This document shows, piece after piece, positions 10,245 through 61,521 of a stretch of DNA of 61,521 nucleotides; the stretch's first letter is position 1, and each line of letters begins with the position of its first letter. Below the pieces are notes generated by a model. That model ran no database searches. It was not told the origin of the DNA and saw only the letters and a list, made by a program, of their open reading frames with translations. A program made the translations under genes and the position numbers. Location of the stretch: IMG/VR virus record IMGVR_UViG_3300042465_003931, positions 1-61,521 of that record; one strand, 5' to 3'. The stretch comes from a virus. Lineage: Duplodnaviria > Caudoviricetes.

Positions 10245-10295
10245 ACCGCTGGTCAGCGGTATCATTCACGCGGGCGCAGCCCGAAGGAGTTCAAG

Positions 10296-10493: not shown

Positions 10494-10497
10494 ACCC

Positions 10498-10677: not shown

Positions 10678-10680
10678 GCC

Positions 10681-11334: not shown

Positions 11335-11341
11335 GGTAACG

Positions 11342-11758: not shown

Positions 11759-11765
11759 GGTCATC

Positions 11766-36701: not shown

Positions 36702-37074
36702 CTTTTTCTCTTTCAAAGGCTTCGATGATTTCATCGAAAGCGGCTTGAGCCAGCCTGTTGCCATGTAGTTCGGTTCGAGATTCAATCCCGCACCGTTTAC
36801 ATAGCTCTTCGGCTGCTGCCATTTCGTTGGTCACCATCATGAATGTTTGGAACTTGGGATCTTTGCATATCATCCCGGCTCTTTGAACCCTGTTGTTGTA
36901 TGGCGTGGGAGACTCATCATCTTGGATTCTGACGAGAGCACACGCATACCTTGCCCCAACAAAATCCCGAATCAACTCTTCCGGGATTTCATCCGGGTGC
37001 AGGGACAGGCTCAATATAAAGCCTGTCCTGTCCTGCTTCAGGGCGATCTTGCGTGCTTCAAACTGAAGCGCCAC
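36691..37074 (-). CDS. hypothetical protein
   Basis: AG..C.DP.F..F...CGIESR.EL motif; operon position. Confidence 0.55.
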   Translation of the reverse strand: MALQFEARKIALKQDRTGFILSLSLHPDEIPEELIRDFVGARYACALVRIQDDESPTPYNNRVQRAGMICKDPKFQTFMMVTNEMAAAEELCKRCGIESRTELHGNRLAQAAFDEIIEAFEREKDDF

Positions 37075-39704: not shown

Positions 39705-39730
39705 TTGATGCGTAGTGTAGCACCGGAAGG

Positions 39731-39833
39731 TGGACAGGTTGGACAGGATGGACGCCCTTTTGGATAAATCCTTCCGAACGGGCACCGGAGACAAGGGGTC
39801 GCAAAACGTCGATCATCCTGTCCAACCTGTCCA
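39731..39833. repeat. 20-bp perfect inverted repeat made of TGGACAGG units (candidate origin)
   Basis: TGGACAGGTTGGACAGGATG 39731-39750 / CATCCTGTCCAACCTGTCCA 39814-39833. Confidence 0.85.
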
Positions 39834-39919
39834 AAACATGCGTGTAAACCACATGATCGGCGACTGGTACGGCATGTAAACGCAAAAAATGTCGCGTTAG
39901 CGACAAAGCCCTATAGAGC

Positions 39920-39947
39920 TTGACAACCGCTGTGGATGTGGTACAGT
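39920..39947 (+). promoter_or_regulatory. sigma70-type promoter of the replication operon
   Basis: TTGACA-16-TACAGT with TG extension. Confidence 0.65.
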
Positions 39948-39954
39948 GGATCTT

Positions 39955-40340
39955 GTTGGCGTGAGAACCGACGTTCGGAGCCCTTGCTCATCGACCCGCC
40001 CCCCAGCCCCCGGGGGGTTCTCACCGGGTCGAGTAGCAAGGGCTTTGTCGTTTCTGCACCAACCGTACTCCGCACGACAGCAAGGGGTCTAGAGTGCCTG
40101 CGCGGAAGAAAAGCTCTACACGGTAAGCCGTGGGCTTGATGATGACGATGTGTGTGACAAGTCTTGCTGTGGCTCCCTTAAGTGCAGCCGTCTGGCTACA
40201 GCAAGGCTCTGCTAAATGGGTGCGACTCCCTGTGTCACTCCGAGTCGCCGTCATCATCAAGCCTATGGCCGGGGGCAGTTCCCGTAGAACCCGTGCGGCT
40301 AGCCGTAACCTCAAGCCGGGGGGTGTCTGAAAAGGCACAT
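39955..40340 (+). ncRNA. long structured leader / attenuator-like RNA
   Basis: Hairpin 39979-40044 followed by T-rich tail; 15-bp stem 40133-40147/40249-40263 with nested stems; no convincing ORF. Confidence 0.5.
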
Positions 40341-44989: not shown

Positions 44990-45085
44990 GTCGTCCTCCT
45001 TGTAGGCCTCTTGAAGGAATCCAGGGTCACGGTCAGTGATGCACTTGACCCTGGGCTCATGGTGCATTGGGTTGCTGCGGCTCAT
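44831..45085 (-). CDS. hypothetical protein
   Basis: ATGA-coupled to the bL12-like gene; ends just before the terminator. Confidence 0.5.
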   Translation of the reverse strand: MSRSNPMHHEPRVKCITDRDPGFLQEAYKEDDLDLIPHDGFVRHAEKYIKWSRQGWSVYLMTIERVPRFVGRYPTCKRAIFYAR

Positions 45086-45390
45086 TGGAGCAATCTCTCG
45101 ATCATTTGGCGCTCGGTCGCGCCGTTCATCTGGCCGATCTCGTCCGCGATGTCCTTGGACTCCTTCAGCCCGAGCCCCCGGTGCATCCGAATGATCTTGA
45201 TCGCCTCGATCTTCATACCCCTGCGCAGGGCGTCGAGCGCCTCGATTGCCCAACCGGGCGCGTCGATCACGTTGGCTGCGCGGATCAGCGCGTCCGGGTC
45301 GATCCTGGCCAATGTAAACAGCAGGCCCAGGGCGTCTCGTTTGCCCTCGGCCACGTCTTGCAGGATCTTGATGGCGTCTTGATAGTTCAT
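45082..45390 (-). CDS. ribosomal protein bL12 (L7/L12) C-terminal-domain-like protein
   Basis: KIEAIKIIRMHRGLGLKESKDIAD matches the L7/L12 K..VIK.VR..TGLGLKEAKDLV signature. Confidence 0.7.
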   Translation of the reverse strand: MNYQDAIKILQDVAEGKRDALGLLFTLARIDPDALIRAANVIDAPGWAIEALDALRRGMKIEAIKIIRMHRGLGLKESKDIADEIGQMNGATERQMIERLLQ

Positions 45391-45623
45391 GCGTCCCCCG
45401 ACCCGTCACCAAGTCCGGCGCGGGTATTGGTCCCGGTGATCAAAGGCGGCGCGGTCGCCCGGGATGGCGCGGGCCGTGCCGATGCGCGTTCGTTGACGCG
45501 TTTACATTTGTGCGAATGCTTCCCTTCCCCTGCAGGGGATGGACTACTGGTCTCAAATCACGCCGGTCAGCATCAGCGCCGCGATCACGGCGCAGAGGAT
45601 CAGCAACAGTCGGTCGTCGTCGT

Positions 45624-47432
45624 TCATCGTGCCCCCTTCATCTGCCCGAATGCCACGCGGCCCAGGTCCTCCAGTCGGTCGACCTGCACGGCTGAATCCC
45701 CGTAGGTCTCGCTGACGTTGTGCCCAATCCCCACGCCGATCACGCGGATCCCAAGCCCCCGGGCGGCGTCTAGTTGGCGGGCGGTGGTCCATACGTTGCC
45801 GTCCCCGTCGCTGATGCTGATCAGGATCTTGCGCTGCGCGGGGTGCGCCATCAGTGCTTCGGTCGCGTACCGTGCGGCGGCGTAGTCGTTCGTGTCACCC
45901 TGGCCATGCAGGCGGCGCAGGTCGGGCAGCGCCTTGCGCCACGGTTGGCCCCATTGCTTGAGGACCGTCGAGTCGGTGCCGAACGTGAGCAACAGGGACT
46001 CGCCTCGGGCCTGGGCGATAGCGTCGAGCAGGGCGGTGCATGTGGCCACTGCCAACCCAATTCGGGAAGTCGCCACGCGGTCGCGAATCATCTCCAGTCG
46101 GTGCGTGTCGCGCACATTGCAGCCGCCCGTGGGGAACATCGATCCGCTAACGTCCAGCATGATTGCCACTGCTGAGTCAACTCCATCCGTCGAATGACGG
46201 CGGGCGAACACCTCGCGCCTGCCTGTCGCCACGCTGGCGAGTGCGGGCCGGTGCAGGGTGCCGGACCGATAGCCGCCCTCGCGCCACTCGGTCGCGCTGT
46301 TCTCCAGCAGGCGGCGGACCTCCAGGCGGAGGCGGGCCGGGACCGCTGCCTCTGTGGGCCAGATGTCCATCGGCGCGCAAGAGGGCAGGCGGGCCCGCAG
46401 CACGGATTCCCGGGTGTAGGTTCCGCCCGGCGCGCTCTCCTCGGGCCTGGGTTGAGAGGGCTCGACCTCCCGTGCTTGCTGGTGCCCGCTGGGGGCCCTG
46501 GCGGGGCCTGTGGGCTCGTCCTGTGGTTCACCCTTGCCCTGGCCTTCGGCTGCGCCTTGCGCGTCTCCTGCGCCTTCCTGGCCGTCTTCCTGGCCGTCGC
46601 CCTGGCCTGCGCTCTGGCCTTGCTGGCCGTCCTGGCCTTGTCCTTTGCCCTGGCCTTGCGCGTCTCCTGCGCCGTCCTGTCCGTCCTGTCCGTCCTGGCC
46701 GTCGTCCTGGCCTTGCTGGCCGTCCTGGTCCTGGTCGCCTTGTCCCTGGTTCTGTTGGTTCTGTTGGTTCTGCTGGTTCTGTTGGTTCTGCTGGTTCTGT
46801 TGGTTCTGCTGGGGCGGCTGTTGCAGTTGATCGAACACCCAGCGGGCAAGCTCTAGGGTGTCGGCGGTCGAGTGGCAGGCGTCGAGCCGTGACGCGGCGG
46901 TGCGCCAGATCGGCAGCAACTCGGCGGGCGTGGGCACGGTGTGCCCGTAGCCGCGCAGGTAGACCGCCAGACTGAAGGGGTACTGTGCCGGGTCGGACCA
47001 GTCATTCACCGCCTCGCGGGCCTGGGTGACCATGGTACCGAGTAGCTCCCTCAGCAGGTTGCCAATGTTCCCGGTCAGTCCCTCGCGGATGGCGCGTCGC
47101 TCGATCCAGGCGTCCTCGATTGCGTTGTGGAGCGTGTCGACGTAGGGTCGACCGTCGGACCATGTGAACGTGGTGAGCTTTCGGTGCAGTAGCTCGTGCA
47201 CCACATAGCCCGCGTAGTGGTGGATCGTGGCGCGGGTGACGGTGGCGGCGTCGCCGATATCGGACAGGATCATGTCGCCGCTGGAGTTAATCGCGGCGGT
47301 CTGGATTCGGCTCGACCACTGGACCGTGATCGGCTGCAATTCGAGCGCCTTGCACAGTCGATGCGCGAACGCCTCGAGCCCTGCGCGGGCCTCGATGCCG
47401 CGCATGGTGCGGCTCATAAGTAGATCGGTCAC
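45624..47432 (-). CDS. CobT-like vWA protein with N-terminal HExxH domain
   Basis: HELLH...NAIEDAWIE; Q/N/D/G linker; MIDAS DVSGS...T...ISDG. Confidence 0.8.
   Translation of the reverse strand: MTDLLMSRTMRGIEARAGLEAFAHRLCKALELQPITVQWSSRIQTAAINSSGDMILSDIGDAATVTRATIHHYAGYVVHELLHRKLTTFTWSDGRPYVDTLHNAIEDAWIERRAIREGLTGNIGNLLRELLGTMVTQAREAVNDWSDPAQYPFSLAVYLRGYGHTVPTPAELLPIWRTAASRLDACHSTADTLELARWVFDQLQQPPQQNQQNQQNQQNQQNQQNQQNQGQGDQDQDGQQGQDDGQDGQDGQDGAGDAQGQGKGQGQDGQQGQSAGQGDGQEDGQEGAGDAQGAAEGQGKGEPQDEPTGPARAPSGHQQAREVEPSQPRPEESAPGGTYTRESVLRARLPSCAPMDIWPTEAAVPARLRLEVRRLLENSATEWREGGYRSGTLHRPALASVATGRREVFARRHSTDGVDSAVAIMLDVSGSMFPTGGCNVRDTHRLEMIRDRVATSRIGLAVATCTALLDAIAQARGESLLLTFGTDSTVLKQWGQPWRKALPDLRRLHGQGDTNDYAAARYATEALMAHPAQRKILISISDGDGNVWTTARQLDAARGLGIRVIGVGIGHNVSETYGDSAVQVDRLEDLGRVAFGQMKGAR
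46746..46808. repeat. 9-bp tandem repeat x7 encoding (QNQ)n
   Basis: (C/T)TGGTTCTG x7. Confidence 0.9.
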
Positions 47433-48988
47433 AGTGCGGACTCCCTGGCCACGAGGGCCTCATCGATGCAGGCGCTGTAAACGGCGGCGAGTGCGGCCTC
47501 CGACTCGGCGGGCTGGCGGGCAGCGATTGCCGACCTCCAGGCCTCGGCCACCGGCAGGACCTGGGCGGCTTCGATGAACGCGACCATCTGCCGGATGCTG
47601 GGGGCGTCGATGATGTCGCCGCTATCGACCTTCGACCGCAGCACGCCCATGCCCGCGACTAGGTGCGCTGCCAGGGCAGGAGTGCATCCGGTGTGCCGGG
47701 TCAGTGCCTCGGCCTCAGTGGCCGGGTCGAGGTAGCGGAACGGTACGACCAGCGAGAACCGCTCGGAGAACGCCACATTCATGGGCTGGACCCCGGCGTA
47801 CCGGCCCGACGGGTCGCCCTGGGTCAGATCGTTCGATGCGGCTAAATACATGGTCCCTGGGGCGCGGTGCCAGACCTGCCCCGCGTAGGCCACTTGTGCC
47901 TGTCGTTCCAAAAACGCGTTCAGCGCCGACAGTGCGCCGGGCTGGCCCATGCCGACCTCGTCGAGCAAGCAGACCGCGCCCGGTGTGGTGTACGCGGCCA
48001 GGACCGCGCCGGGTTCGAACACGGTCGACCCGTTGCTGAGGCCGGTCGCGCCCAGGAAGTCGTCGCGGGTACTGAAGCGGTCGAACACAAACCGCCGGAA
48101 CATGCGCCCGGTGCGGGCCGCGAACTGCTGCGCGGTCTGGGTTTTGCCGGTGCCTGCCGGACCTCCGAGCCACAAGTTGCGACCGTGGGTCGCGGCAACA
48201 TGCAAGTGCCGCACGATGGACTCAGACCAAATGAAACACGGGTCAACGGCGGGGGCCTCGGGGTGACCGTAGGTGTCGAACACGAGGGGTCGACCCTTGG
48301 CGTCGGACAGATCTAGGCCAAAGAGGGTAAGCGCCGATTCACGCCCGGTCGGGCCGGACTCGGCCACTGCTACCGCCTGCGCCTGGGTGCCTGCTGTTTC
48401 AACGGCGGCGCGGTACGGTTCCCAGGCGGCCAGGACTTGATCTCTGATCGCGGCCTGGATTGACGCATCGTCTGCCCGCGGTGCGCGGGTCAGTGCCTGG
48501 GAGAGGCGGCGCAGTTCTGCGTCGGTGTCGTCTGCCCTCTGAATCGCGCCGTCGAGTCGGCCCTTGTGGTACTCGATCACGGTCCAGTGGCTGGCCAGGG
48601 TGTCGCCCAGTTTGCCGACCTCGTGGCAGGCTTGGGTGGCTAGTTGATCGGCGCGGTTGGCCGTTGTCTCCACCGCCTGGAGTCGACGGAGTGCCTCGCG
48701 GGCGGTTTCCTCTGCCCGGTCGGCGGCGGCGCGGGTGGCCGCGACGTCCGGGGCCTGGGGGCGGGGAGAGAAGGCGGGTTGTGGTGCGCCAAGGGATGCG
48801 GTGACGTTCAGCGGCTGGCTGGTCAAGTCGGAGATGGTCCACCGTCCCCGGTTGATGCCCGCCAGCAAAGCGGATTGCATCGTCGAGCGGGGTTGGGGTG
48901 ACGCGTCGCCGGTCAGTCGTTGATACGCCAGCGACAGATCGCGCAAGGGTAGGCCAGATACGTGTTGTAGGGGGGTCATGGTCGTCAC
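47429..48988 (-). CDS. MoxR/CbbQ/CobS-like AAA+ ATPase
   Basis: Walker A GPAGTGKT, Walker B LLDEV, AASN..G......Y.G...N.AF.ERF, S.R; N-terminal coiled coil. Confidence 0.85.
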   Translation of the reverse strand: MTTMTPLQHVSGLPLRDLSLAYQRLTGDASPQPRSTMQSALLAGINRGRWTISDLTSQPLNVTASLGAPQPAFSPRPQAPDVAATRAAADRAEETAREALRRLQAVETTANRADQLATQACHEVGKLGDTLASHWTVIEYHKGRLDGAIQRADDTDAELRRLSQALTRAPRADDASIQAAIRDQVLAAWEPYRAAVETAGTQAQAVAVAESGPTGRESALTLFGLDLSDAKGRPLVFDTYGHPEAPAVDPCFIWSESIVRHLHVAATHGRNLWLGGPAGTGKTQTAQQFAARTGRMFRRFVFDRFSTRDDFLGATGLSNGSTVFEPGAVLAAYTTPGAVCLLDEVGMGQPGALSALNAFLERQAQVAYAGQVWHRAPGTMYLAASNDLTQGDPSGRYAGVQPMNVAFSERFSLVVPFRYLDPATEAEALTRHTGCTPALAAHLVAGMGVLRSKVDSGDIIDAPSIRQMVAFIEAAQVLPVAEAWRSAIAARQPAESEAALAAVYSACIDEALVARESAL

Positions 48989-49554
48989 TCCTCGGTGGTT
49001 TCTTCAGCGATAAAGGCGGTGCCGTCGTAACAAACAGGGACACCGGCGGCCAACCATTTACGGGTTGTCCTCACGGTGTAGCCGCAGCCCGGGCAGACAA
49101 GCTTCAGCATGCGGGTCGTCTGGGTCTGCCTCTTCCCGGCCAGGATCGGCGCATGGGGGTAGTCCCCAAGATCGGCAAGGACCGTGGCCCATAGGTCCGG
49201 GAAGTCGGGGCCCGGGGCGGTGGCCTTGTAGCTGTCATCCATGGGCATCAGGCCCAGGTCAGCGACGGCGGCGCGGAAGGTGTTGCTGCCGCTGGTGGCT
49301 GCGCCTGGGAGTGAGTGGGCAAGCTCCCGCAGGAGCAAGCAGAGAACCTCGGTCGGGTCCGCGACGGTCGGGGAGATGAGGATCTCCCAGGTTCCGTCAC
49401 CGGACGCGGTGTCGGGCCAGGACTCGGACAACGTGCCGGACCGGGTATAGGTCGAGGGGAATCCACAAGCGGCGCGGATGGCCGTCGGGAAGGGGGCGTG
49501 TATGCGCGCAGCCTGGATGGCGGCGCTCAACCACGATTCGCGGGTTGGGTGCAT
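48985..49554 (-). CDS. SprT-like zincin-fold protein with degenerate active site
   Basis: RE.WL, EILISP, RELAH in place of HExxH, TRMLK..C..CGY.VR...KW...G.P.C; AGGAG RBS. Confidence 0.65.
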   Translation of the reverse strand: MHPTRESWLSAAIQAARIHAPFPTAIRAACGFPSTYTRSGTLSESWPDTASGDGTWEILISPTVADPTEVLCLLLRELAHSLPGAATSGSNTFRAAVADLGLMPMDDSYKATAPGPDFPDLWATVLADLGDYPHAPILAGKRQTQTTRMLKLVCPGCGYTVRTTRKWLAAGVPVCYDGTAFIAEETTEE

Positions 49555-49612
49555 GGTCTCTCCTGTTTCCTCGCAGCACTAGCGCTGCGGGTCGCCTCGC
49601 GGGCGAGCCCTG

Positions 49613-49641
49613 AGCGTAACGGTGCAAACGGACCATGTCAA
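49613..49641 (-). promoter_or_regulatory. sigma70-type early promoter
   Basis: Minus strand TTGACA-17-TACGCT; -35 flanked by a GGACC/GGTCC inverted pair (49630-49649). Confidence 0.65.
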
Positions 49642-49885
49642 TAGGGTCCAACGTGGGGCTAGTGCAAGCGCCGTGGGGTATGGGCGAAGCCGGACGGACT
49701 GACTGACAACGTGTACGCCCGCACGCGTAGCACAAGACAAAAGAAACACAAAGCCCGAGCAAAACAGAGGGTCAGGGCTGTATGAAGGTACATGCCCCTA
49801 GAACGCGTCAGAACGGCCCAGGAGCGACGCAAGGTGGTGGTACATGCCCTGGCCTTCAAAAATATAGATCTCGCCTTCCAGCGAG

Positions 49886-49967
49886 TTCTGCACAAGTTAT
49901 CCACAAGCGCCCAGAGGGACTGCACAAAAAAGAGGCAGTTCTAAAGGTTATCCACAAGTTTTCCACA
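49886..49967 (+). promoter_or_regulatory. cluster of four DnaA boxes
   Basis: TTCTGCACA 49886, TTATCCACA 49897, TTATCCACA 49948, TTTTCCACA 49959. Confidence 0.7.
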
Positions 49968-50046
49968 GTATGATGCGAACAAAGCCCAGGCGGGCAACGT
50001 ATGCCGGGTGACGGTGCGGGACAGATCATCAGATACGGGGTAGGGT

Positions 50047-50667
50047 ATGGGAACGATCAGCAGCGAGGAGTATCTGAGGGCGCTCGAGGACGTAGACCAG
50101 GAAGAGGAATGTGTAAACGATGAAGAGCCGGAGGCCGGGGCCGATGAGGAAAGCGAAGCGGAACAGTTGGCGGGGGCAGCAGAACCGCCAGGAGAGAGAG
50201 CAGGACTCAGGATCCAAACGCCAGAAGGATGGCGAAGGGTCCGACGGTTAACACCGGCACAAGAGGCGTTCGCCAGGGGGGTTATAGAGGGGAAAAGCTA
50301 CCGCCAAGCCTACCGTGACGCATACCCGGGAGCGCAGGGACAACCGGGGTCAATCGCATCGAGCGCGTACAAGTTGAGTAGGGATCCGAGGATCCAGGCT
50401 CTCATACAGGCGGGTGATGACGAACACCAAGATGCGGTCGCGGAGGATCTGGCTGCGACTAAACGTTATGTGATGAGAAGGTTGGTGGAGATGAGCAAAG
50501 CAGGCAAGCAGGAAGGATCGAGGCTCAAGGCCCTGGAGCTACTCGGACGCGTAGCCGGTATGTGGCGTGACACTCAACCGACCGCAGATGAGAAGCCGTT
50601 GACGGCGGCGGAGTTGAAGGCGGCGCTGGCCGGACACTTGAGGCTGGTGCAGGGGCGCAAGGCGTGA
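50047..50667 (+). CDS. terS: terminase small subunit
   Basis: LTPAQEAFA...G....AYR.AY...A..L...P.I, and RLKALELLG...GM; upstream of terL. Confidence 0.8.
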   Translation: MGTISSEEYLRALEDVDQEEECVNDEEPEAGADEESEAEQLAGAAEPPGERAGLRIQTPEGWRRVRRLTPAQEAFARGVIEGKSYRQAYRDAYPGAQGQPGSIASSAYKLSRDPRIQALIQAGDDEHQDAVAEDLAATKRYVMRRLVEMSKAGKQEGSRLKALELLGRVAGMWRDTQPTADEKPLTAAELKAALAGHLRLVQGRKA

Positions 50668-50729
50668 CCCACCCCTCCGGGGGGAGGGCCCTGTGTGCGG
50701 CTGACCACCCTCCTGCGCCTTACGCTCAA

Positions 50730-50772
50730 ATCCGCTCATTCCATCATTGTTCCGGTTGATCCGCTCATTCCA
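50730..50772. repeat. 14-bp direct repeat ATCCGCTCATTCCA x2
   Basis: 50730-50743 and 50759-50772, in the terS-terL spacer. Confidence 0.8.
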
Positions 50773-50793
50773 CCACTTTTCCAGTTGACCCCC

Positions 50794-50809
50794 CGTTCCA
50801 CGTGAAACA
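50794..50809. promoter_or_regulatory. parS-like site
   Basis: CGTTCCACGTGAAACA versus bacterial consensus TGTTNCACGTGAAACA. Confidence 0.7.
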
Positions 50810-50884
50810 CTACCCCCCCGGGTATATATATATTTTGCGTAAACACAAGTACAATGAGAACAAGCGTTCTCAATGATAGCGGTT

Positions 50885-51109
50885 ATGACGCGTAAACAAA
50901 GGAGGCTGTATGAGTTCATACAGGCGTACATCAAGAGGTACGGGCTGAGCCCTTCGTATCATGTGACGGCCAAGGCGTTGGGCTTGAGGTCGAAGTCCAA
51001 TATTCACAGGATGGTGTGTGATTTGATAGCGCAGGGGTTCTTGGAGAAGGATCCCCGGAAGTTTTATGCGATCAAGGTGAAGAATGCTTCTGTCGAAACA
51101 GGAGATTGA
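50885..51109 (+). CDS. LexA-type DNA-binding domain protein
   Basis: MT.KQ..LY.FI..YI...G.SPS......LGL.S.S..H.....L...G.L; no peptidase domain. Confidence 0.7.
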   Translation: MTRKQRRLYEFIQAYIKRYGLSPSYHVTAKALGLRSKSNIHRMVCDLIAQGFLEKDPRKFYAIKVKNASVETGD

Positions 51110-52577
51110 GAAGTACTTGTCTGCGGTGGACAAGTTGCCGGAGTCTGAGAGGGCGAAGGTTCATGCGTTGCTGGGGCTTGATCGTCTTCAGCGGTGCAAG
51201 GATTCGTTCTTGTTTTTTGTGAAGCAGATGTGGCCTGGGTTCATTTCGGGCAAGCATCATCAGATCATGGCGAATGCGTTTGAGAGGATTGCGGAAGGGA
51301 AGTTGAAGAGGTTGATCATCAACATGCCTCCAAGACACACGAAGAGTGAGTTTGCGTCGTATCTGCTTCCGGCGTGGTTCTTGGGGAAGTTCCCGCATAA
51401 GAAGATCATTCAGACGTCACACACATCTGAACTGGCAGTGGGGTTTGGCCGGAAGGTTCGGAACTTGGTTCAGAGTGATGATTACAAGAAGGTGTTTCAG
51501 ACGAAGTTGTCTGCGGACTCGAAGGCGGCAGGAAGATGGAACACGGACAAGGGTGGGGACTACTTCGCTATCGGTGTTGGAGGCGCTGTAACGGGTAAGG
51601 GCGCGGATCTGTTGATCATTGATGATCCGCACAGCGAACAAGAAGCAAAGCAGGGAAACCCTGCGGTGTATGACGCTGTTTATGAGTGGTACACATCTGG
51701 CCCTCGACAGCGTTTACAGCCGGGTGGGGCGATTGTCATTGTGATGACAAGATGGTCCAGCAGAGATTTGACGGGGCAGATTCTCAAGGGAAGCTCGAAG
51801 GATGGGACAGATGATTGGGAGGTGATTGAGTTTCCGGCGATTCTTCCTTCTGGGAATCCGTTGTGGCCTGGGTTCTGGAAGTTGGAGGAGTTGCGGGTTC
51901 TGAAGTCGGAACTGTCGGTTTCCAAGTGGGAGGCTCAGTACCAGCAGAATCCGACCTCTGAAGAGGGTGCGATCATTAAGAGGGAGTTCTGGAAGATCTG
52001 GCCGGACGAGGATCCTCCTTCTTGTTCTTACATCATTCAGAGTTGGGACACTGCGTTTGAGAAGCACAACCGGGCAGACTTCTCTGCTTGCACGACATGG
52101 GGCGTGTTTGACAGGGAAGATCGGCACGGAAACATGGTGCCGAACATCATCCTTTTGGATGCGTTTCAGGACCGGATGGAGTTCCCTGATCTGAAGAAGA
52201 AAGCGCTGGAGAAGTGGAAGGAATGGAACCCGGACTCATTGATCATTGAGAAGAGGGCCGCTGGCGCTCCTCTGATCTATGAGATGAGGAAGATCGGCGT
52301 TCCGCTGTCGGAGTACACCCCCTACAAGGGACAAGACAAGATCGCCCGGGTCAACTCGATTGCGGACCTGTTTGCCTCCGGGATCGTTTGGCGGTCTGAT
52401 CATCGATGGGCAGAAGAGGTCATGGAGCAGATGGCTGCGTTTCCCAACGGGGACCATGACGACCTTGTAGACTCAGCAAGTCAGGCCCTGATGCGGTTTA
52501 GACAGGGTGGGTTCATTGCCATCGAATCAGATGAGAAAGATGAACAGTTTGATCGCAGGCCGATGGCCTACTACTGA
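51084..52577 (+). CDS. terL: terminase large subunit
   Basis: MPPRHTKSE, LLIIDDP, MTRW, YQQNP, SWDTA, HDDLVD. Confidence 0.92.
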   Translation: MLLSKQEIEKYLSAVDKLPESERAKVHALLGLDRLQRCKDSFLFFVKQMWPGFISGKHHQIMANAFERIAEGKLKRLIINMPPRHTKSEFASYLLPAWFLGKFPHKKIIQTSHTSELAVGFGRKVRNLVQSDDYKKVFQTKLSADSKAAGRWNTDKGGDYFAIGVGGAVTGKGADLLIIDDPHSEQEAKQGNPAVYDAVYEWYTSGPRQRLQPGGAIVIVMTRWSSRDLTGQILKGSSKDGTDDWEVIEFPAILPSGNPLWPGFWKLEELRVLKSELSVSKWEAQYQQNPTSEEGAIIKREFWKIWPDEDPPSCSYIIQSWDTAFEKHNRADFSACTTWGVFDREDRHGNMVPNIILLDAFQDRMEFPDLKKKALEKWKEWNPDSLIIEKRAAGAPLIYEMRKIGVPLSEYTPYKGQDKIARVNSIADLFASGIVWRSDHRWAEEVMEQMAAFPNGDHDDLVDSASQALMRFRQGGFIAIESDEKDEQFDRRPMAYY

Positions 52578-52588
52578 AAGGCTCAAGA

Positions 52589-55024
52589 ATGGCTACCAAC
52601 ATTGACTCCGCTTTGGTTCCGATGGAGATCCAAGAAGGCCCCGGGATTGAGATTGAGATCGAGGATCCTGAAGCGGTCAGGATTGGGATCGATGGTCTTG
52701 AGATTGAACTCACCAAGGAGTCTCCAGAGGAAGAGTTTGACGCCAATTTGGCGGAGTTCATGGATGAGTCTGTCTTGCAAGGGTTGGCGTCTGAGTTGAT
52801 TGAGCTTGTCGATTCGGACATGAACAGTCGAAAGGACTGGACGGAGATGTATGTCAAGGGGCTAGAAGTCCTTGGCATGAAGTACGAAGAAAGAACAGAG
52901 CCCTGGTCTGGCGCTTGTGGTGTTTACAGCCCTCTTCTGACGGAAGCGGCGATTCGTTTTCAGTCGGAAATGATTACCGAGACGTTCCCGGCGCAAGGCC
53001 CGGTGAAGACTCAGATCATTGGGGCAATCGACAAGTACAAGGAAGAAGCGGCAGAGCGCGTCAGGGATGACATGAACTACCGTCTGACGGAACAGATGGT
53101 GGAGTACCGCCCGGAGCATGAGCGGATGCTGTACTCCCTCGGTCTGGCAGGCGCTGCCTTCAAGAAGGTCTACTACGACCCGAATCTTGAGCGGCAAGTT
53201 GCTGTTTACATCCCCGCCGAAGAGGTGGTGATTCCCTACGGCGCAAGCAACATTTACGTGTCAGAGCGCGTGACTCACATCATGCGCAAGACCAAGAACG
53301 AGATGAAGCGGCTACAGGTGGCAGGCTTCTATCGTGAGGCAGAACTTGGAGAGCCGGTCAGGTTCTTCAACGACATTGAGAAGAAGAAGGCAGAAGAACA
53401 AGGCTACTCTCTGAACGATGATGATCGGTATCAGGTTCTGGAGGTTCATGTCGATTGGGATCTGCCGGGGTATGAAGACGATTTTCCGCTGCCGTATGTG
53501 ATTACGGTAGAGCGCGGAACTCAGAATGTCTTGGCTATCCGGCGGAACTGGAGGCAGGATGACTCGAGAAAGCTGAAGAGGAATCACTTTGTCCAGTACA
53601 CCTATGTCCCAGGCTTTGGGGCGTATGGACTTGGCTTCATCCACATCATTGGTGGATACGCGAGGGCAGGAACATCAATCATTCGGCAGTTGGTCGACGC
53701 CGGAACATTGAGCAACCTCCCTGGAGGCCTGAAGGCAAGGGGCCTGAGGATCAAGGGAGATGACACCCCGATTGCGCCGGGCGAGTTCAGGGATGTCGAT
53801 ATTCCGTCAGGCGTTGTGCGTGACAACATCATGCCGCTTCCATACAAAGAGCCCTCTCAGGTTCTGGCGGCCCTTCTGGAACGCATTACAGAGGACGGAA
53901 GGCGGCTTGCTGCCATTGGAGATCTGAAGATCGCTGATATGTCAGCGCAAGCTCCGGTTGGAACCACACTGGCAATTCTTGAGCGAACCCTCAAGACCAT
54001 GAGCGCGGTACAGGCTCGGATCCACTCCAGCCTGCGCACGGAGTTCAAACTTCTCAAGGAGATCATCCGGGATTACATGCCCGCCGACTACCCCTACACC
54101 CCAGAAGGAGGGGATAGGGGCGTCAAACAAGACGACTACGATCAAGTCGAAATTATTCCTGTCAGCGATCCAAACGCTGCCACGATGGCTCAGAGGATCA
54201 TGCAGTATCAGGCGGCCATTCAACTGGCCCAAGGTGCTCCGCAGATCTATGACTTGCCGCAACTACACAAGCAGATGCTTGAAGTGTTGGGCATCAAGCA
54301 TGTGGAAAAGCTGATCCCTGCGGCAGAAGATCAAAAGCCAAGAGACCCGGTAACGGAAAACATGAGCGTTTTGATGGGCAAGCCAGTCAAGGCCTTTGCC
54401 TACCAAGACCACGAAGCTCATTTGGCAACGCATCAAGCGTTCATGCAGGATCCAAAGATTGCCGCGACCATTGGACAGAACCCAATGTCTCAGCAAATGA
54501 TGGCTGCACTGATGGCACACATTGCCGAACACGCAGCGTTTGCGTATCGCGCTCAAGTTGAGATGGCTTTGGGTGTGCCTTTGCCTACACTGGATGACGA
54601 CAACGAAGCGCCAATCGGCCGCAACGATGAAAGAGCGCTTGCCCCGCTCATTGCTGCTGCCGCTCAGCGCACGATGGTTCAAAACCAAGCTATGGCTGCG
54701 CAAATGCAGGCTCAACAGCAGGCGATGGATCCTGCCCTTCAAATGCAGCAGGCAGAACTGAACCTCAAAGCTCAGGAGTTGCAGCGCAAGGAAGCAGATA
54801 GTCAACGAGATTTTCAAATTGCACAACAAAAACTGCAACTAGAATCTCAGCGACTAATGATGGACGCACAAAAAAGCGGCGATCCAGCATTAAAGGCTGT
54901 CATGGCTAGACAAGACATGGCGCATAAAGAGCAAAAACATCAACAAAATATGCGTCAAGCGGCGCAAAATCAAGCGATTAAATTTAGTCAACAAATGGCG
55001 AAGCCGCCAAGGAGTAATAAGTGA
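52589..55024 (+). CDS. portal protein
   Basis: 811 aa directly after terL; G.AFKKVYYD, DAGTLSNLPGG; Gln-rich C-terminal barrel-like tail. Confidence 0.85.
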   Translation: MATNIDSALVPMEIQEGPGIEIEIEDPEAVRIGIDGLEIELTKESPEEEFDANLAEFMDESVLQGLASELIELVDSDMNSRKDWTEMYVKGLEVLGMKYEERTEPWSGACGVYSPLLTEAAIRFQSEMITETFPAQGPVKTQIIGAIDKYKEEAAERVRDDMNYRLTEQMVEYRPEHERMLYSLGLAGAAFKKVYYDPNLERQVAVYIPAEEVVIPYGASNIYVSERVTHIMRKTKNEMKRLQVAGFYREAELGEPVRFFNDIEKKKAEEQGYSLNDDDRYQVLEVHVDWDLPGYEDDFPLPYVITVERGTQNVLAIRRNWRQDDSRKLKRNHFVQYTYVPGFGAYGLGFIHIIGGYARAGTSIIRQLVDAGTLSNLPGGLKARGLRIKGDDTPIAPGEFRDVDIPSGVVRDNIMPLPYKEPSQVLAALLERITEDGRRLAAIGDLKIADMSAQAPVGTTLAILERTLKTMSAVQARIHSSLRTEFKLLKEIIRDYMPADYPYTPEGGDRGVKQDDYDQVEIIPVSDPNAATMAQRIMQYQAAIQLAQGAPQIYDLPQLHKQMLEVLGIKHVEKLIPAAEDQKPRDPVTENMSVLMGKPVKAFAYQDHEAHLATHQAFMQDPKIAATIGQNPMSQQMMAALMAHIAEHAAFAYRAQVEMALGVPLPTLDDDNEAPIGRNDERALAPLIAAAAQRTMVQNQAMAAQMQAQQQAMDPALQMQQAELNLKAQELQRKEADSQRDFQIAQQKLQLESQRLMMDAQKSGDPALKAVMARQDMAHKEQKHQQNMRQAAQNQAIKFSQQMAKPPRSNK

Positions 55025-55212
55025 CCACTGCGCTTTCCGTGGTACTAAGAGATGTAGAAGATCGCAGACAAATCATTGCAGAAGCCCTCATTGCGGGCTC
55101 TGCAAAAGATTTTGCAGAATACAAGTCCATGACCGGCGAAATCCGAGGTCTTTCGCTGGCTCATTCCATGGTCACTGACCTTGTGCGAAAACTGGAGAAT
55201 GATGATGAGTGA
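55021..55212 (+). CDS. small conserved head-module protein
   Basis: AAGGAG RBS; G...DFAEYK...GEIRGL. Confidence 0.6.
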   Translation: MTTALSVVLRDVEDRRQIIAEALIAGSAKDFAEYKSMTGEIRGLSLAHSMVTDLVRKLENDDE

Positions 55213-55606
55213 ACTGCTCCTGGCAAATGCAGATGGAAGTACGTCTGTTTTGCCTCCAACTGATGCCGAAAAGGCCCGTCAAGTGCCCGATCCGGCGACT
55301 TACCATATTCTGTGCATGGTGCCAAAGGCGGAAGAAGAGTACGAGAGTGGTCTGGCCAAGGCCGGACAGACGATGCAGTACGAAGAAGTGCTGTCCCCCG
55401 TGCTGTTCGTCGCCAAAATGGGCCCGGATTGCTACAAAGACCCTTTGCGCTTTCCTTCTGGGCCTTCGTGCAAGGTCGGAGACTTCGTGCTCGTGCGCCC
55501 AAACTCGGGCACTCGACTGAAGATCCACGGCACTGAGTGGCGGATCGTCAATGATGACTCCGTCGAAGCAGTGGTTCAAGACCCGCGTGGCATCAAGCGC
55601 GCATAA
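55202..55606 (+). CDS. GroES-like co-chaperonin
   Basis: P..Y.IL...P....ESGL...V..MGP....CKVGDFV.....G....I.G.E.RI.NDD.V.AV. Confidence 0.7.
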   Translation: MMSELLLANADGSTSVLPPTDAEKARQVPDPATYHILCMVPKAEEEYESGLAKAGQTMQYEEVLSPVLFVAKMGPDCYKDPLRFPSGPSCKVGDFVLVRPNSGTRLKIHGTEWRIVNDDSVEAVVQDPRGIKRA

Positions 55607-55617
55607 GGAGCAGACAC

Positions 55618-56553
55618 ATGGCTGATTTTAAGTTCCCGGACGAGATTGAGTCGAAGTCCGAGCAGGAAAACGGCGTCTCTAGTGATGTTGAAACAGAACT
55701 TGAGACCGAAATCGAAATTGTTGACGACACTCCAGAAGAGGATCGCAATCGCGCTCCTATGAGGGAGCCTCCGTCGGATGTGACGGACGAAGAACTGGAG
55801 CAGTACAGCGACGGCGTCAAGAAGCGCCTCCAACACTTCTCCAAGGGCTACCACGAAGAGCGGCGGGCCAAGGAGGCAGCTTTCCGTGAGCGCGAAGAAG
55901 CTCTAAAACTGGCTCAATCGCTGGCAGAAGAGAATAAGCGTTTGCACGGAACCCTTGGTCAAGGGCAGAAAGCCCTGATTGAGCAGGCAAAGCAAGTCGT
56001 TGGAAGTGAAGTTGAGGACGCCAAGCGCGAGTATCGAGCCGCGTATGAGGCTGGGGACGCTGAAGCGTTGGTCGCGGCGCAGCAAAAACTGACTGCCGCC
56101 ACCATCAAGATGGATCGAATCAATTCGTTCCGTCCCCCAGTTGCACAACCTCAACAGAATGTGGTACAAACGCCGCCGTCAACTGTTGAAACGCAGGTTC
56201 CAAAGCCTGACGCCAAAGCCATTGCGTGGAAAAACGCCAATCCGTGGTTTGGTTCGGACGAGGAAATGACTGCGCTTGCAATGGCGGTACATGAAAAACT
56301 TGTGAAGCAAGGTGTAGACACCTCCAGTGATGACTACTACGGGCGGATCAACGCTCGGATGCGTCAAGTGTTTCCAGATGCGTTTACCTCTGCGAAACCG
56401 AGCAAAACTGTGGTGGCACCGGCAACGCGCAGCACAGCGCCCAAGAAGATCGTGCTGACGCAAACGCAAGTGAATCTTGCAAAACGTCTTGGCCTGACGA
56501 ATGATCAATATGCCAAGGCTGTGGCGGAAGAAATGAGGAAGCAAAATGGCTGA
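55618..56553 (+). CDS. putative scaffolding protein
   Basis: Acidic N-terminus, long coiled coil, W...NPWFG, C-terminal LT..Q...A..LGLT...YAK. Confidence 0.65.
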   Translation: MADFKFPDEIESKSEQENGVSSDVETELETEIEIVDDTPEEDRNRAPMREPPSDVTDEELEQYSDGVKKRLQHFSKGYHEERRAKEAAFREREEALKLAQSLAEENKRLHGTLGQGQKALIEQAKQVVGSEVEDAKREYRAAYEAGDAEALVAAQQKLTAATIKMDRINSFRPPVAQPQQNVVQTPPSTVETQVPKPDAKAIAWKNANPWFGSDEEMTALAMAVHEKLVKQGVDTSSDDYYGRINARMRQVFPDAFTSAKPSKTVVAPATRSTAPKKIVLTQTQVNLAKRLGLTNDQYAKAVAEEMRKQNG

Positions 56554-56998
56554 ACGAATCTCCCGTGATATGGATACTCGTGCTCGTACCGAGCGTCCGA
56601 AGCAATGGATGCCGCCGGAACTACTTCCCTCCCCCAACCCGGAGGAAGGTTATGAGTTCCGCTGGATTCGCATCAGCACGTTGGGTCAGAACGACCCAAC
56701 CAATGTGACCTCAAAGCTCCGCGAGGGTTGGGAGCCCGTCAAGGCATCCGAGCACCCCGAAATCATGCACATGGGCAGCAACAACGCTCGCTTCCCGGAC
56801 TGCATTGAAGTGGGTGGCCTCATGCTTTGCAAAACCCCCAAGGAGTTTGTCCAACAACGCAATGTTCACTTCCAGAAGATGGCGGACGGGCAGATGCAGT
56901 CGGTGGACAATTCGTTTATGCGCGAGAATGATCGTCGGATGCCGCTGTTCCGTGAACGCAGCACCGAGGTGAAATTCGGGCGCGGTGCAGCAAACTAG
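56546..56998 (+). CDS. conserved head-module protein
   Basis: GYEFRWIR, LREGWEPV, GGLMLCK.P. Confidence 0.55.
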   Translation: MAERISRDMDTRARTERPKQWMPPELLPSPNPEEGYEFRWIRISTLGQNDPTNVTSKLREGWEPVKASEHPEIMHMGSNNARFPDCIEVGGLMLCKTPKEFVQQRNVHFQKMADGQMQSVDNSFMRENDRRMPLFRERSTEVKFGRGAAN

Positions 56999-57007
56999 GA
57001 GTTTTGA

Positions 57008-61452: not shown

Positions 61453-61521
61453 ATGAGTCTTTCACAGAACTACCCAACAACAAGACCCACTCTGACGCTT
61501 GACTTTGCCAAGGCTAAGCGT
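61453..61521 (+). CDS. start of fibre paralog C (repeat of 1169..1237, truncated by the window end)
   Basis: Identical to 1169-1237. Confidence 0.8.
   Translation, partial: MSLSQNYPTTRPTLTLDFAKAKR

What the first reader, a model, noticed from the sequence alone, without database searches (positions are those of the whole stretch)
49613..51109. Composite host-origin mimic around the packaging gene
Within about 1.5 kb the phage has an early promoter, four DnaA boxes, terS, a 14-bp direct repeat, a parS site, a C-run/AT-run (CCCCCCCGGGTATATATATATTTT) and a LexA-type HTH gene. DnaA boxes plus parS are the hallmark pair of bacterial origin regions. Inference: a cis-acting system that makes the incoming or replicating phage DNA look like a chromosome origin, allowing integrase-free maintenance or hijack of the host cell cycle. 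I am not aware of a description of this arrangement but cannot check the literature.
Basis: inference. Interest (0 to 1): 0.8.

Follow-up and report, generated by a model that had tools for sequence, protein, structure and literature searches.

The report
Host DnaA and ParB sites flanking terS

Summary
The listed motifs are present, except that a consensus scan found no sigma-70 promoter. The window is a permuted, nearly complete 61.5-kb podophage genome, distantly related to HTVC023P-type pelagiphages. I found no integrase, ParA, ParB or family-A polymerase.

- **DnaA boxes.** Two boxes are perfect, one has one mismatch and one has two. They lie 80-160 bp upstream of terS in a ~230-nt non-coding block. 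All 22 close relatives that could be examined have at least 2 perfect boxes there; 0 of 5 distant relatives do. The last box abuts a -10-like hexamer.
- **parS.** The 15/16 site sits in an 18-nt slot between two C-runs, downstream of terS. Most relatives have unrelated, G-poor sequence in that slot. Across the clade, parS-like 16-mers occur in 3 contexts, while 839 control palindromes gave at most 1. One context lies in the same spacer of an independent lineage.
- **Reading.** These are two separate modules. The first is most likely a DnaA-gated terS promoter, possibly also an origin. The second is a packaging/late-promoter spacer that has picked up a ParB site.
- **Precedents.** T5 carries DnaA boxes and phi29 carries parS sites. 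Tandem DnaA boxes are common in phage DNA, often beside terminase genes or contig ends.

Interest is moderate.

The parts
48985..49554 (-). SprT-like zinc-ribbon protein gene (189 aa), transcribed away from the DnaA array. It heads a leftward trio with a MoxR/CobS-like AAA gene (47429-48988) and a VWA/CobT-like gene (45624-47432).
   Evidence: phrog_6361 E 8.5e-27. The nearest ESM Atlas clusters carry SprT-like PF10263. AAA_5 and VWA_2 hits.
49780..49985 (+). Module A: conserved non-coding block holding the DnaA-box array.
   Evidence: Alignment A1. The block aligns across lineages whose TerS and SprT-like proteins are only 42-59% identical to the window's.
49886..49905 (+). DnaA-box pair 1: TTCTGCACA (2 mismatches), AG, TTATCCACA (perfect).
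49948..49967 (+). DnaA-box pair 2: TTATCCACA (perfect), AG, TTTTCCACA (1 mismatch).
49969..49981 (+). -10-like TATGAT followed by GCGAACA, a motif kept after the last box in relatives. Putative terS promoter core and start region.
   Evidence: My reading. In L012 the scan finds TTGCCT-N17-GATAAT overlapping the last box. No consensus promoter was found in the window itself.
50047..50667 (+). terS, terminase small subunit (206 aa).
50730..50787 (+). Module B, part 1: two tandem 29-nt repeats with a 14-nt perfect core, ATCCGCTCATTCCA. Relatives have 1-3 copies of a related unit.
50789..50819 (+). Module B, part 2: C6, an 18-nt slot, C7. In this lineage the slot holds the parS-like palindrome.
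50794..50809 (.). parS-like 16-mer CGTTCCACGTGAAACA, 15 of 16 to the chromosomal consensus.
50820..50836 (+). Module B, part 3: GGG (TA)5 TTTT. A C/G-run followed by a TA-run is conserved in relatives, and contigs often break here.
50850..50871 (+). -10-like TACAAT followed by the perfect palindrome GAGAACAAGCGTTCTC (GAAC-N4-GTTC). Putative promoter and operator of the HTH-terL operon.
   Evidence: A second GAAC-N4-GTTC lies 16 nt after the TTGACA-N17-TACAGT promoter at 39.92 kb.
50873..51109 (+). 78-aa protein consisting of a LexA-type winged-HTH domain only. Its end overlaps the terL start by 26 nt.
   Evidence: Conserved directly upstream of terL in relatives.
51084..52577 (+). terL, terminase large subunit (497 aa).
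   Evidence: phrog_38 E 4e-106

Best explanation
The 1.5 kb holds two independent cis-acting modules on either side of terS. They sit at the junction between the leftward early/accessory arm and the rightward packaging arm of a lytic-looking podophage genome.

Module A (49.78-49.98 kb) is an array of host DnaA boxes laid over the terS promoter. I propose the following mechanism. Host DnaA binds the phased boxes and gates transcription into terS, with occlusion of the -10 region as the likeliest mode. Packaging-gene expression would then follow the amount of free DnaA, which falls as phage genome copies, each carrying the array, accumulate. The same complex may also help to open the DNA for the phage primase-helicase.

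Module B (50.67-50.87 kb) is the spacer in front of the HTH-terL operon. It holds tandem repeats, C-runs, a TA-run, a -10-like hexamer and a GAAC-N4-GTTC operator. I read it as a terminase-recognition and/or late-promoter region, autoregulated by the LexA-DBD-only protein.

The parS-like palindrome is a lineage-specific occupant of a variable slot in module B. It is probably a genuine landing pad for host ParB, analogous to the parS sites of phi29. It is an add-on and not half of a conserved origin mimic.

Shown: the motifs, their conservation, their positions and the gene content. Inferred: binding by DnaA and ParB, the direction of regulation, and the roles of module B.
For: DnaA array
- The window's cluster beats 300 of 300 shuffles.
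- 22 of 22 relatives with TerL at least 75% identical, and with terS plus at least 350 nt of upstream DNA, have at least 2 perfect boxes within 450 nt of terS. 0 of 5 distant relatives do.
- 20 distant loci, including the isolates DSL-LC04 and 023Pt_psg01, have no cluster.
- The non-coding block is conserved although the flanking proteins are 42-59% identical to the window's.

Promoter overlap
- In L012 the scan finds TTGCCT-N17-GATAAT, with the -10 inside the last box.
- In every lineage shown, the last box is followed within a few nt by a -10-like hexamer and G(C/T)GAACA. In the window this is TATGAT-GCGAACA.

Wider pattern
- Tandem perfect boxes occur in at least 119 viral contigs.
- Among 21 sampled loci, the flanking gene is a terminase in 9, covering best-hit families phrog_38, phrog_2, phrog_9 and a phrog_51 TerS.

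Module B
- The architecture of repeats, C-run, slot, C/G-run and TA-run recurs in relatives.
- The HTH gene always abuts terL.

parS
- It is 15 of 16 to the consensus.
- It occurs in 3 distinct contexts in 72 clade sequences. Of 839 control palindromes, 816 gave 0 contexts, 23 gave 1 and none gave 2 or more.
- L132 is an independent lineage (TerS 46% identical) with TGTTCCACGTGAAACC in the same terS-HTH spacer, about 54 nt upstream of its own G-run that leads into the TA-run (about 65 nt to the first TA).
- The reversed-pattern control gave 0 hits in 48 records.

Precedent
- The phi29 genome carries five parS sites used with host Spo0J (PMC2731898, passages read).
Against: - No consensus sigma-70 promoter was found in the window itself. 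The window has no good -35, and its boxes all lie on one strand, unlike the inverted boxes of most relatives.
- Nothing distinguishes repression from activation.
- Tandem boxes also sit near the ends of cultured T7-like phages and, by the preprint, in T5-like phages. None of those is read as late-promoter control, so the general role of such arrays may be something else.
- Two of the parS contexts lie inside genes where the 16-mer encodes VSRGT. A further context, in G002, G004, G047 and G049, encodes FVS(R/C)ET. One relative, L016, changes the motif synonymously. Protein constraint could therefore explain those cases.
- The 99% and 94% complete relatives G001 and G003 have no parS at up to 2 mismatches.
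- Module B shows no significant RNA structure and matches no Rfam family. Its role is inferred from position alone.
Confidence: 0.4

Rival explanations
1. Module A is the phage's origin of replication. Host DnaA oligomerises on the phased boxes and melts adjacent DNA. The phage primase-helicase (42736-44412) then loads, and the host polymerase copies the genome.
For: - No family-A polymerase was found, and no initiator-like protein appeared among the early-region ORFs that I scanned.
- The phage encodes a gp4-like primase-helicase.
- The boxes are in 11-bp phase, and relatives have 3-7 boxes in both orientations.
- The array lies at a point of divergent transcription.
- The ~230-nt conserved block is larger than a promoter needs.
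- In the wider survey the arrays lie beside primase/helicase genes in 4 of 21 loci.
Against: - The only A/T-rich tract nearby is 17 nt, TTCAAAAATATAGATCT. There is no clear unwinding element.
- An alternative origin/operator candidate exists at 39725-39835, with TGGACAGG iterons in a 32-nt inverted repeat.
- Similar arrays occur in T7-like phages and, by the preprint, in T5-like phages. By general knowledge these carry complete replisomes. The T5 preprint argues that its boxes are not an origin (10.1101/866236, passages read).
Confidence: 0.25
2. The array is a DnaA sink, or an element linked to a genome end. It would act by sequestering or tethering host DnaA: shutting off host initiation, or anchoring or protecting DNA near a packaging or injection end. 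It would not act by regulating terS.
For: - In 54 whole viral contigs with tandem boxes, 10 have them within 150 nt of a contig end, against 2.2 expected (p about 6e-5).
- In another phage group, 3 of 3 contigs (L105, L114, L117) show an HNH gene, then the array, then a G-run, and all end within 10 nt of each other.
- Cultured T7-like records carry the boxes at 79-125 nt from the record start, or between gp0.3 and the packaging gene.
- T5-like phages have 8 boxes in the terminal repeat (10.1101/866236).
- In the window's clade, by my count, 6 of 29 contig ends upstream of terL fall inside the ~45-nt C-run/TA element.
Against: - Contigs from 3 runs bridge the element. The one break, in X2 at 50788-50812, is in low-depth contigs at the C-runs, which fits an assembly failure.
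- The contig starts in the element are not at one homologous base.
- The window's own ends cut a gene, so the assembly is effectively circular.
- The array is about 0.85 kb from the element.
Confidence: 0.12
3. DnaA boxes plus parS together make the phage DNA behave like a small chromosome, replicated by host DnaA and partitioned by host ParABS. This would allow persistence without integrase (carrier state or plasmid prophage), or interference with the host cell cycle.
For: - Both motif classes are non-random.
- No integrase, ParA, ParB_N or polymerase A was found.
- An RHH repressor-like gene is present at 36318-36785.
- Only one hit was found in 185,579 species' genomes, a 1.5-kb contig, so the phage does not appear as an integrated prophage.
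- A parS has arisen at least twice in the same spacer.
Against: - The parS is absent from most lineages, including two nearly complete genomes. The pair is therefore not a conserved unit.
- Only one parS per genome was found, and no replication-control or partition genes.
- The structural relatives that have been isolated are described as lytic (10.1101/2019.12.14.876532, passages read).
- DnaA arrays are common in phages that are lytic by general knowledge.
Confidence: 0.1
4. The parS resemblance is fortuitous. The slot is a variable spacer, or a site for a phage protein, and this lineage happens to read like parS. Only the DnaA array is a host-factor site.
For: - In L003, L004, L005, L022, L024 and L029 the slot holds G-poor sequences that share only TTC...AAAC with the window. 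The parS thus differs from them by a few substitutions.
- Two of the other clade contexts are in coding sequence.
- Conservation among strain variants is uninformative at about 1% divergence (X3; L002).
Against: - Clade-level enrichment against 839 controls.
- An independent non-coding occurrence in the same spacer in L132.
- The only mismatch is at the outermost base.
Confidence: 0.3

Closest known systems
[quoted passage not shown]
   Same: A conserved set of consensus and near-consensus DnaA boxes, arranged in closely spaced pairs. They lie in a non-coding region that is better conserved than the neighbouring genes, in a phage that shows no lysogeny genes. The source is 10.1101/866236, of which I read passages.
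   Different: T5 has 8 boxes tied to inverted repeats inside a terminal repeat, and they are proposed to stop injection. Here 4 boxes (3-7 in relatives) lie directly upstream of terS and overlap a promoter-like site. No terminal repeat is known for this phage. The function is untested in both cases.
parS sites of Bacillus phage phi29, used with host Spo0J
   Same: A phage without a partition system of its own carries the host chromosome's ParB-binding sequence. The source is PMC2731898, of which I read passages.
   Different: phi29 has five parS sites plus Spo0A boxes, and uses them for entrapment in the spore. Here there is one site, the host is unknown, and no link to sporulation is evident. 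The site is also not conserved across the clade.
Bacterial oriC region (DnaA boxes with nearby parS)
   Same: The same two motif types occur within about 1 kb of each other.
   Different: No clear AT-rich unwinding element is present. There is no dnaA, dnaN, parAB or gidAB synteny, because a terminase gene lies between the two motifs. The pairing is not conserved in relatives.
DnaA as a transcription factor at promoters (for example dnaA autoregulation, or stimulation of lambda pR). Recalled from general knowledge, not from a call.
   Same: High-affinity boxes overlap or adjoin the core promoter elements.
   Different: The target here would be a phage packaging operon. No experimental support exists.
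Plasmid prophages such as P1 and N15. Recalled from general knowledge, not from a call.
   Same: An integrase-free lifestyle would need origin and centromere functions. I recall that P1 oriR uses DnaA boxes.
   Different: Those phages encode their own Rep and Par proteins and have their own centromeres. None were found here.

Membership tests
DnaA-dependent (oriC-type) replication origin | Cluster of DnaA boxes | tested here: met
   2 perfect and 2 degenerate boxes. The cluster exceeds 300 of 300 shuffles. It is conserved in 22 of 22 relatives.
DnaA-dependent (oriC-type) replication origin | Adjacent AT-rich DNA-unwinding element | tested here: inconclusive
   Only a 17-nt A/T-rich tract at 49855-49871 lies beside the boxes. 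No long AT-rich region is present. I did not score DnaA-trios.
DnaA-dependent (oriC-type) replication origin | Supports autonomous, DnaA-dependent replication | not testable with these tools
   This needs a mini-replicon assay in the (unknown) host.
Chromosomal parS (ParB/Spo0J centromere) | 16-bp palindrome matching TGTTNCACGTGAAACA | tested here: met
CGTTCCACGTGAAACA has 1 mismatch, at position 1.
Chromosomal parS (ParB/Spo0J centromere) | Bound by a cognate ParB | not testable with these tools
   The phage has no ParB_N match. The host is unknown.
Chromosomal parS (ParB/Spo0J centromere) | Kept under selection in relatives | tested here: inconclusive
   The site is absent at this place in most relatives. 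It is nevertheless enriched in the clade, with 3 contexts against at most 1 for 839 controls. It also recurs in the same spacer in L132.
LexA repressor | N-terminal LexA-type winged-HTH DNA-binding domain | tested here: met
   PF01726, E 1.8e-9, above the cut-off. It aligns to residues 3-67 of 3k2z LexA (a weak E of 0.042).
LexA repressor | C-terminal S24 peptidase / self-cleavage domain | tested here: not met
   The ORF is 78 aa and ends inside terL. No peptidase match was found. It is therefore a LexA-DBD-only protein and not a LexA.
Terminase small subunit | Sequence membership and position next to terL | tested here: met
   phrog_51 E 1e-13. PDB small terminase E 2e-4. It lies upstream of terL with the HTH gene between them, and this order is kept in relatives.
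phi29-type exploitation of host ParB | Several parS sites on a phage of a spore-forming host | tested here: not met
   The window has one site at up to 2 mismatches. Host and sporulation are unknown.
Plasmid prophage (P1/N15 type) | Own replication initiator and ParA/ParB | tested here: not met
   No CbiA/ParA match and no ParB_N match. No initiator appeared among the scanned ORFs. Many small ORFs were not scanned.

The most novel reading that the evidence does not exclude
A clade of freshwater and soil podophages that lack a polymerase, an initiator, an integrase and partition genes borrows the host's chromosome-maintenance proteins through bare DNA sites. A universal DnaA-box array would serve as the start site for once-per-cycle replication. 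In several lineages an independently acquired parS would load host ParB. The infecting genome could then persist and segregate as a chromosome-like episome (carrier state) until the LexA-type/RHH circuitry switches it to packaging.
Probability: 0.1. Interest if true: 0.8.

Novelty: new variant of a known kind. Interest (0 to 1): 0.5.

Why it matters
DnaA boxes and parS sites are cheap ways, needing no protein of the phage's own, for a phage to plug into the host cell cycle. Each has a single worked or proposed example (T5, phi29).

Here a DnaA array is fixed across a whole uncultivated clade, at one defined place: the terS promoter. A parS has been gained more than once. A quick survey suggests that tandem DnaA boxes beside terminase genes or genome ends are widespread in phage DNA.

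If DnaA gates packaging genes or starts phage replication, that would be a general and so far little-studied layer of phage-host coupling. It could be tested with reporters and ChIP once a host is in hand.

If the sites are only sinks, or merely tolerated, the finding is a useful annotation and no more.

Tried and rejected
**Searches that gave nothing**
- Near-identity and distant BLAST of the region against cultured phages found no match.
- Rfam found no match in 49000-51500.
- RNA folds of module B are no better than shuffles: z +0.69 for the window and -0.88 for L009. I dropped the idea of a structured RNA or of pairing between the G-block and the C-block.
- Small ORFs in the DnaA block (49782-49973 and 49792-49944). 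Comparison with L012 by eye shows substitutions that are not concentrated at third codon positions, and an early stop. I rejected them as coding. This is inference, not a formal test.

**Ideas tested and set aside**
- A virion RNA polymerase with hairpin promoters, as in N4. The 3228-aa protein is a polyvalent protein with an LPD38 domain and shows no polymerase match.
- A regulon of GAAC-N4-GTTC sites. There are only 3 sites against 1.09 expected, with 12 of 100 shuffles reaching 3, and one site lies inside a small ORF. I kept it only as a local operator idea.
- A Bacteroidota host. The only support is one 1.5-kb contig binned in a Saprospiraceae MAG. It is contradicted in spirit by a good TTGACA-N17-TACAGT promoter at 39.92 kb. 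The host remains unknown.

**Limits of the read-level data**
- Physical ends could not be mapped. All 20 runs found are kept only as contigs. The laid contigs show bridging in X1, X3 and X5 and one low-depth break in X2. This cannot show molecule ends, so I draw no conclusion about termini or habitat beyond the run labels.

**Literature**
- Full-text searches for DnaA box + bacteriophage + parS + ParB, DnaA boxes + phage genome + origin + terminase, parS site / phage genome / host ParB, and DnaA box / lytic phage / DnaA titration returned no paper describing a DnaA-box plus parS pair in a phage.
- These were four keyword searches of an open-access library, not proof of absence.

**Counts that used only part of the data**
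- One search used 48 of the 80 TerL loci: the close group and partial close relatives. It left out 32 distant ones (L042, L044, L045, L047-L073, L078, L080).
- One search left out loci without a terS hit, or with fewer than 350 nt upstream of terS (for example L004, L015, L022, L029, L037).
- Searches scanned 30 ORFs from 21 of the 43 loci that had at least 1.5 kb on both sides of the array. Some of these loci are related to each other or to the window's clade: L132 certainly, and probably the phrog_38 ones.
Full report
**What the window is**

The window is an IMG/VR virus record of 61,521 bp, classed 'linear' and 99% complete. Its two ends cut through one gene. An ORF starts at 61454 and runs off the end, and an open frame runs in from base 2. 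I read the two as one gene, probably a tail-fibre-like one; no tool named it. The record is therefore a permuted, nearly closed circle, and its ends are not physical ends.

Gene content:
- The structural and packaging genes run rightwards from about 50 kb, across the record's ends, to about 31 kb. They include terS, terL, portal and a 3228-aa polyvalent protein with an LPD38 domain.
- The arm at 31-39.4 kb is transcribed leftwards. It holds an exonuclease, a Sak-like annealing protein and an RHH protein.
- The arm at 39.9-45.7 kb is transcribed rightwards and holds a gp4-like primase-helicase.
- A G+C-rich block (64-69%) at 45.6-49.55 kb is transcribed leftwards. It encodes VWA/CobT-like, MoxR/CobS-like AAA and SprT-like proteins.
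- No tyrosine integrase, family-A polymerase, CbiA/ParA or ParB_N match was found in six frames.

The nearest cultured phages by TerL are at 48-59% identity: DSL-LC04, 023Pt_psg01, the pelagiphages HTVC027P and HTVC023P, and Planktothrix/Synechococcus phages. The pelagiphages are described as lytic podoviruses that do carry a polymerase (10.1101/2019.12.14.876532, passages read). This phage therefore shares their structural module but not their replication module. Near-identical DNA is held by runs labelled lake water, freshwater, wastewater and soil. Only the four runs that I laid were checked.

**The observation**

All the listed motifs are present except a consensus promoter; details are in the observation check.
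- The DnaA boxes form two same-strand pairs, at 49886-49905 and 49948-49967. Spacing is 11 bp within each pair and 62 bp between pairs.
- The terS ORF is supported by PHROG and PDB matches.
- Behind it lie a 29-nt tandem repeat, then C6, an 18-nt slot holding CGTTCCACGTGAAACA, then C7 GGG (TA)5 T4. A TACAAT and the perfect palindrome GAGAACAAGCGTTCTC follow.
- Next comes a 78-aa gene that is only a LexA-type winged HTH and overlaps the terL start.

**Relatives: the DnaA array is a fixed feature of the clade**

A TerL search of IMG/VR gave 80 loci. The gene order SprT-like (leftward), spacer, terS, spacer, HTH, terL, portal holds in all relatives with TerL at least 75% identical that reach far enough.
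- Of those with terS and at least 350 nt upstream, 22 of 22 have 2-5 perfect TTATCCACA boxes within 450 nt of terS, plus 0-3 one-mismatch boxes (layouts).
- 0 of 5 distant relatives (TerL 63-64% identical) have any.
- 20 distant loci, including two isolates, have no cluster.
- The boxes sit in a ~230-nt block that aligns at the DNA level across lineages whose TerS and SprT-like proteins are only 42-59% identical to the window's. That is the signature of a constrained non-coding element.

In most lineages the layout is: a degenerate box, 2-3 nt, a perfect box, a conserved ~42-nt spacer, a perfect box, 2-3 nt, an inverted box, ~20 nt, an inverted box. G(T/C)GAACA follows directly. In L012 the consensus scan places TTGCCT-N17-GATAAT with the -10 inside the last box and the -35 right after the preceding one. 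The window is a reduced version with four same-strand boxes followed by TATGAT-GCGAACA. It has no scan-level promoter.

**Relatives: the parS is not part of that fixed feature, but it is not noise either**

At the window's position only L002 has a parS (TerL 99% identical; it reads CGTTTCACGTGAAACA). The module around it is conserved: a block after the terS stop, 1-3 tandem repeats, a C-run, a 16-20-nt slot, a C/G-run, a TA-run and an A/T-run. The slot, however, holds G-poor, non-palindromic sequence in L003, L004, L005, L008-type, L022, L024 and L029.

Even so, parS-like 16-mers with at most 1 mismatch occur in 7 of 48 relatives' records, with 0 hits for the reversed control. In 72 clade sequences (670 kb, redundant) they fall into 3 distinct contexts. 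All 839 other palindromes built from the same half-site letters gave 0 contexts (816 controls) or 1 context (23 controls).

The contexts are:
- **(a)** Window and L002, in the spacer.
- **(b)** L132, an independent lineage (TerS 46%, HTH 47% identical). TGTTCCACGTGAAACC lies in the same terS-HTH spacer, flanked by a G-run and about 54 nt upstream of its own G-run that leads into the TA-run, or about 65 nt before the first TA.
- **(c)** L012, L013, L014 and L119, inside the AAA gene, where the 16-mer encodes VSRGT. L016 has a synonymous change that breaks the motif.
- **(d)** A fourth context, outside the unbiased set. In G002, G004, G047 and G049 the 16-mer lies in a small zinc-ribbon gene and encodes FVS(R/C)ET.

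Protein constraint may explain (c) and (d). Contexts (a) and (b) are non-coding and lie in the same region, which chance does not easily give. Two nearly complete relatives, G001 and G003, have none at up to 2 mismatches. I conclude that the parS is probably a functional add-on in some lineages, and not half of a conserved device.

**Are genome ends nearby?**

Many relatives' contigs start just upstream of the HTH gene. By my count, 6 of 29 contig ends upstream of terL lie inside the ~45-nt C-run/TA element (L002, L028, L032, L038, L039, L041). They are not at one homologous base.

Logan contigs from three runs bridge the element. One low-depth run breaks at 50788-50812, exactly at the C-runs. 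Homopolymer-driven assembly failure explains this at least as well as physical ends do. Contigs cannot decide the question.

**A wider look at DnaA arrays in phage DNA**

- The exact head of the array occurs in 24 viral contigs. Twenty have the clade's own gene context (SprT-like gene, element, terS).
- Three (L105, L114, L117) are a different phage type. An HNH gene is followed by 3-4 phased boxes and a G-run, and the contig ends about 90 nt later. All three end within 10 nt of each other. L146 and L189 look the same, and in L189 a TerL gene follows.
With 18 fixed bases, my estimate is that chance gives only a few hits even in tens of gigabases.
- In 54 whole contigs, 10 have the boxes within 150 nt of an end, against 2.2 expected.
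- Of 21 sampled loci, the flanking gene is a terminase in 9: TerL in 8, spanning three best-hit PHROG families, and TerS in 1. It is a ParB-like protein in 4, a primase or helicase in 4, and a SprT-like phrog_6361 protein in 2. The sample was chosen for long ORFs and is not phylogenetically thinned.
- A 41-nt triple-box query matches 260 cultured phage records. These include ~112-kb Klebsiella phages, which I take to be T5-like from their size, not from a call. They also include T7-like phages where the boxes lie 79-125 nt from the record start, or between gp0.3 and the packaging gene (P483), as well as Lactococcus phages and Microviridae.

Tandem DnaA boxes are therefore common in phage DNA and tend to sit at the boundary between packaging genes and genome ends. 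The T5 preprint is the only discussion that I found.

**Mechanism**

Shown: the sites, their phasing, their conservation, their overlap with promoter-like hexamers and the gene content. Inferred: everything about binding and effect.

I commit to module A being a DnaA-gated terS promoter (confidence 0.4). The boxes are placed with base-level regularity against the -10-like hexamer and the conserved GAACA start region in every lineage. The simplest consequence is occlusion, which would be relieved as free DnaA is titrated by the multiplying phage copies. An origin role (0.25) fits the missing polymerase and initiator and the size of the block. It lacks an unwinding element, and it has a competitor in the TGGACAGG iteron palindrome at 39725-39835. 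A sink or end-tethering role (0.12) fits the wider survey best and this locus least.

Module B is most likely the recognition and promoter region of the HTH-terL operon. The GAAC-N4-GTTC palindrome would be the operator of the LexA-DBD-only protein. A second such palindrome follows the strong early promoter at 39.92 kb. This protein is not a LexA, because the cleavage domain is absent.

**Comparison and novelty**

Each half has a precedent: T5-type DnaA arrays, and phi29 parS sites used with host Spo0J. Three things are new here:
- a clade-wide array fixed on the terS promoter;
- repeated gain of parS in the packaging spacer;
- the hint that DnaA arrays mark terminase and genome-end boundaries in many phages.

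The composite 'origin mimic' is not supported as a unit. An episome-like lifestyle remains possible at about 0.1.

Verdict: a real and partly new variant of known kinds, of moderate interest (0.5).

Noticed in passing
L105, L114, L117 (also L146, L189): A different phage group has this order: an HNH endonuclease gene, 3-4 phased perfect DnaA boxes, a G8-10 run with a T-rich tail, and then the contig end about 50-90 nt later. Three of three contigs end within 10 nt of each other. In L189 the contig runs on into a phrog_9 TerL. This looks like a cos end with a DnaA array beside it.
   Followed up: partly
Viral-contig loci L121-L200; cultured phage hits H26-H65: Tandem perfect DnaA boxes are widespread: at least 119 viral contigs and 260 cultured phage records. 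They are enriched near contig ends (10 of 54 against 2.2 expected) and beside terminase genes (9 of 21 sampled loci). ParB-like genes flank them in 4 of 21.
   Followed up: partly
window 39725-39835 and 39921-39949: A 32-nt inverted repeat (88% complementary) built of TGGACAGG iterons surrounds a 1-mismatch DnaA box at 39759-39767. A good TTGACA-N17-TACAGT promoter and a GAAC-N4-GTTC palindrome at 39965-39976 follow. This is the early control region and an alternative origin candidate.
   Followed up: partly
L132 (reverse strand 10151-11782), L039, L041: terL is interrupted after about codon 85 by roughly 1 kb of inserted DNA in three relatives. This could be an intron, an intein or a homing-endonuclease insertion. 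The window's terL is uninterrupted.
   Followed up: no
window 45000-50700 versus 51000-57000: There is a sharp composition step at about 50.7 kb. The SprT/AAA/VWA/terS side has 62-69% G+C and the HTH-terL-portal side 52-55%. In relatives, TerL is 75-87% identical to the window's but TerS only 40-57% in most lineages (77-80% in the closest, L003 and L004). This is a mosaic junction exactly at module B.
   Followed up: partly
L003-L007, L015, L018, L024, L027, L074, between the TA-run and the HTH gene: Many relatives carry an extra small gene here (motif DYAYPTMMAE...LHEA). The window lacks it.
   Followed up: no
window 21331-31017; G002, G003, G004: The window has a 3228-aa polyvalent protein with an LPD38 domain. 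The 2638-2993-aa counterparts in relatives show weak ParB_N-like stretches below the cut-off. The window's protein does not.
   Followed up: no
window 45624-47432 (- strand): The VWA/CobT-like protein has a long low-complexity Q/N/G/D-rich tract (QNQQNQ..., GQDGQ...) in its middle.
   Followed up: no
window 1-22 and 61454-61521: The record's two ends fall inside one gene, which I read as tail-fibre-like; no tool named it. The 'linear' record is therefore a circular or permuted assembly that lacks a few codons.
   Followed up: yes
L108 (57-kb contig): The same box pair occurs next to three direct repeats of GG(C/T)TC(A/G)CTCG(A/C). None of the clade's genes are nearby, so the context is different.
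   Followed up: no
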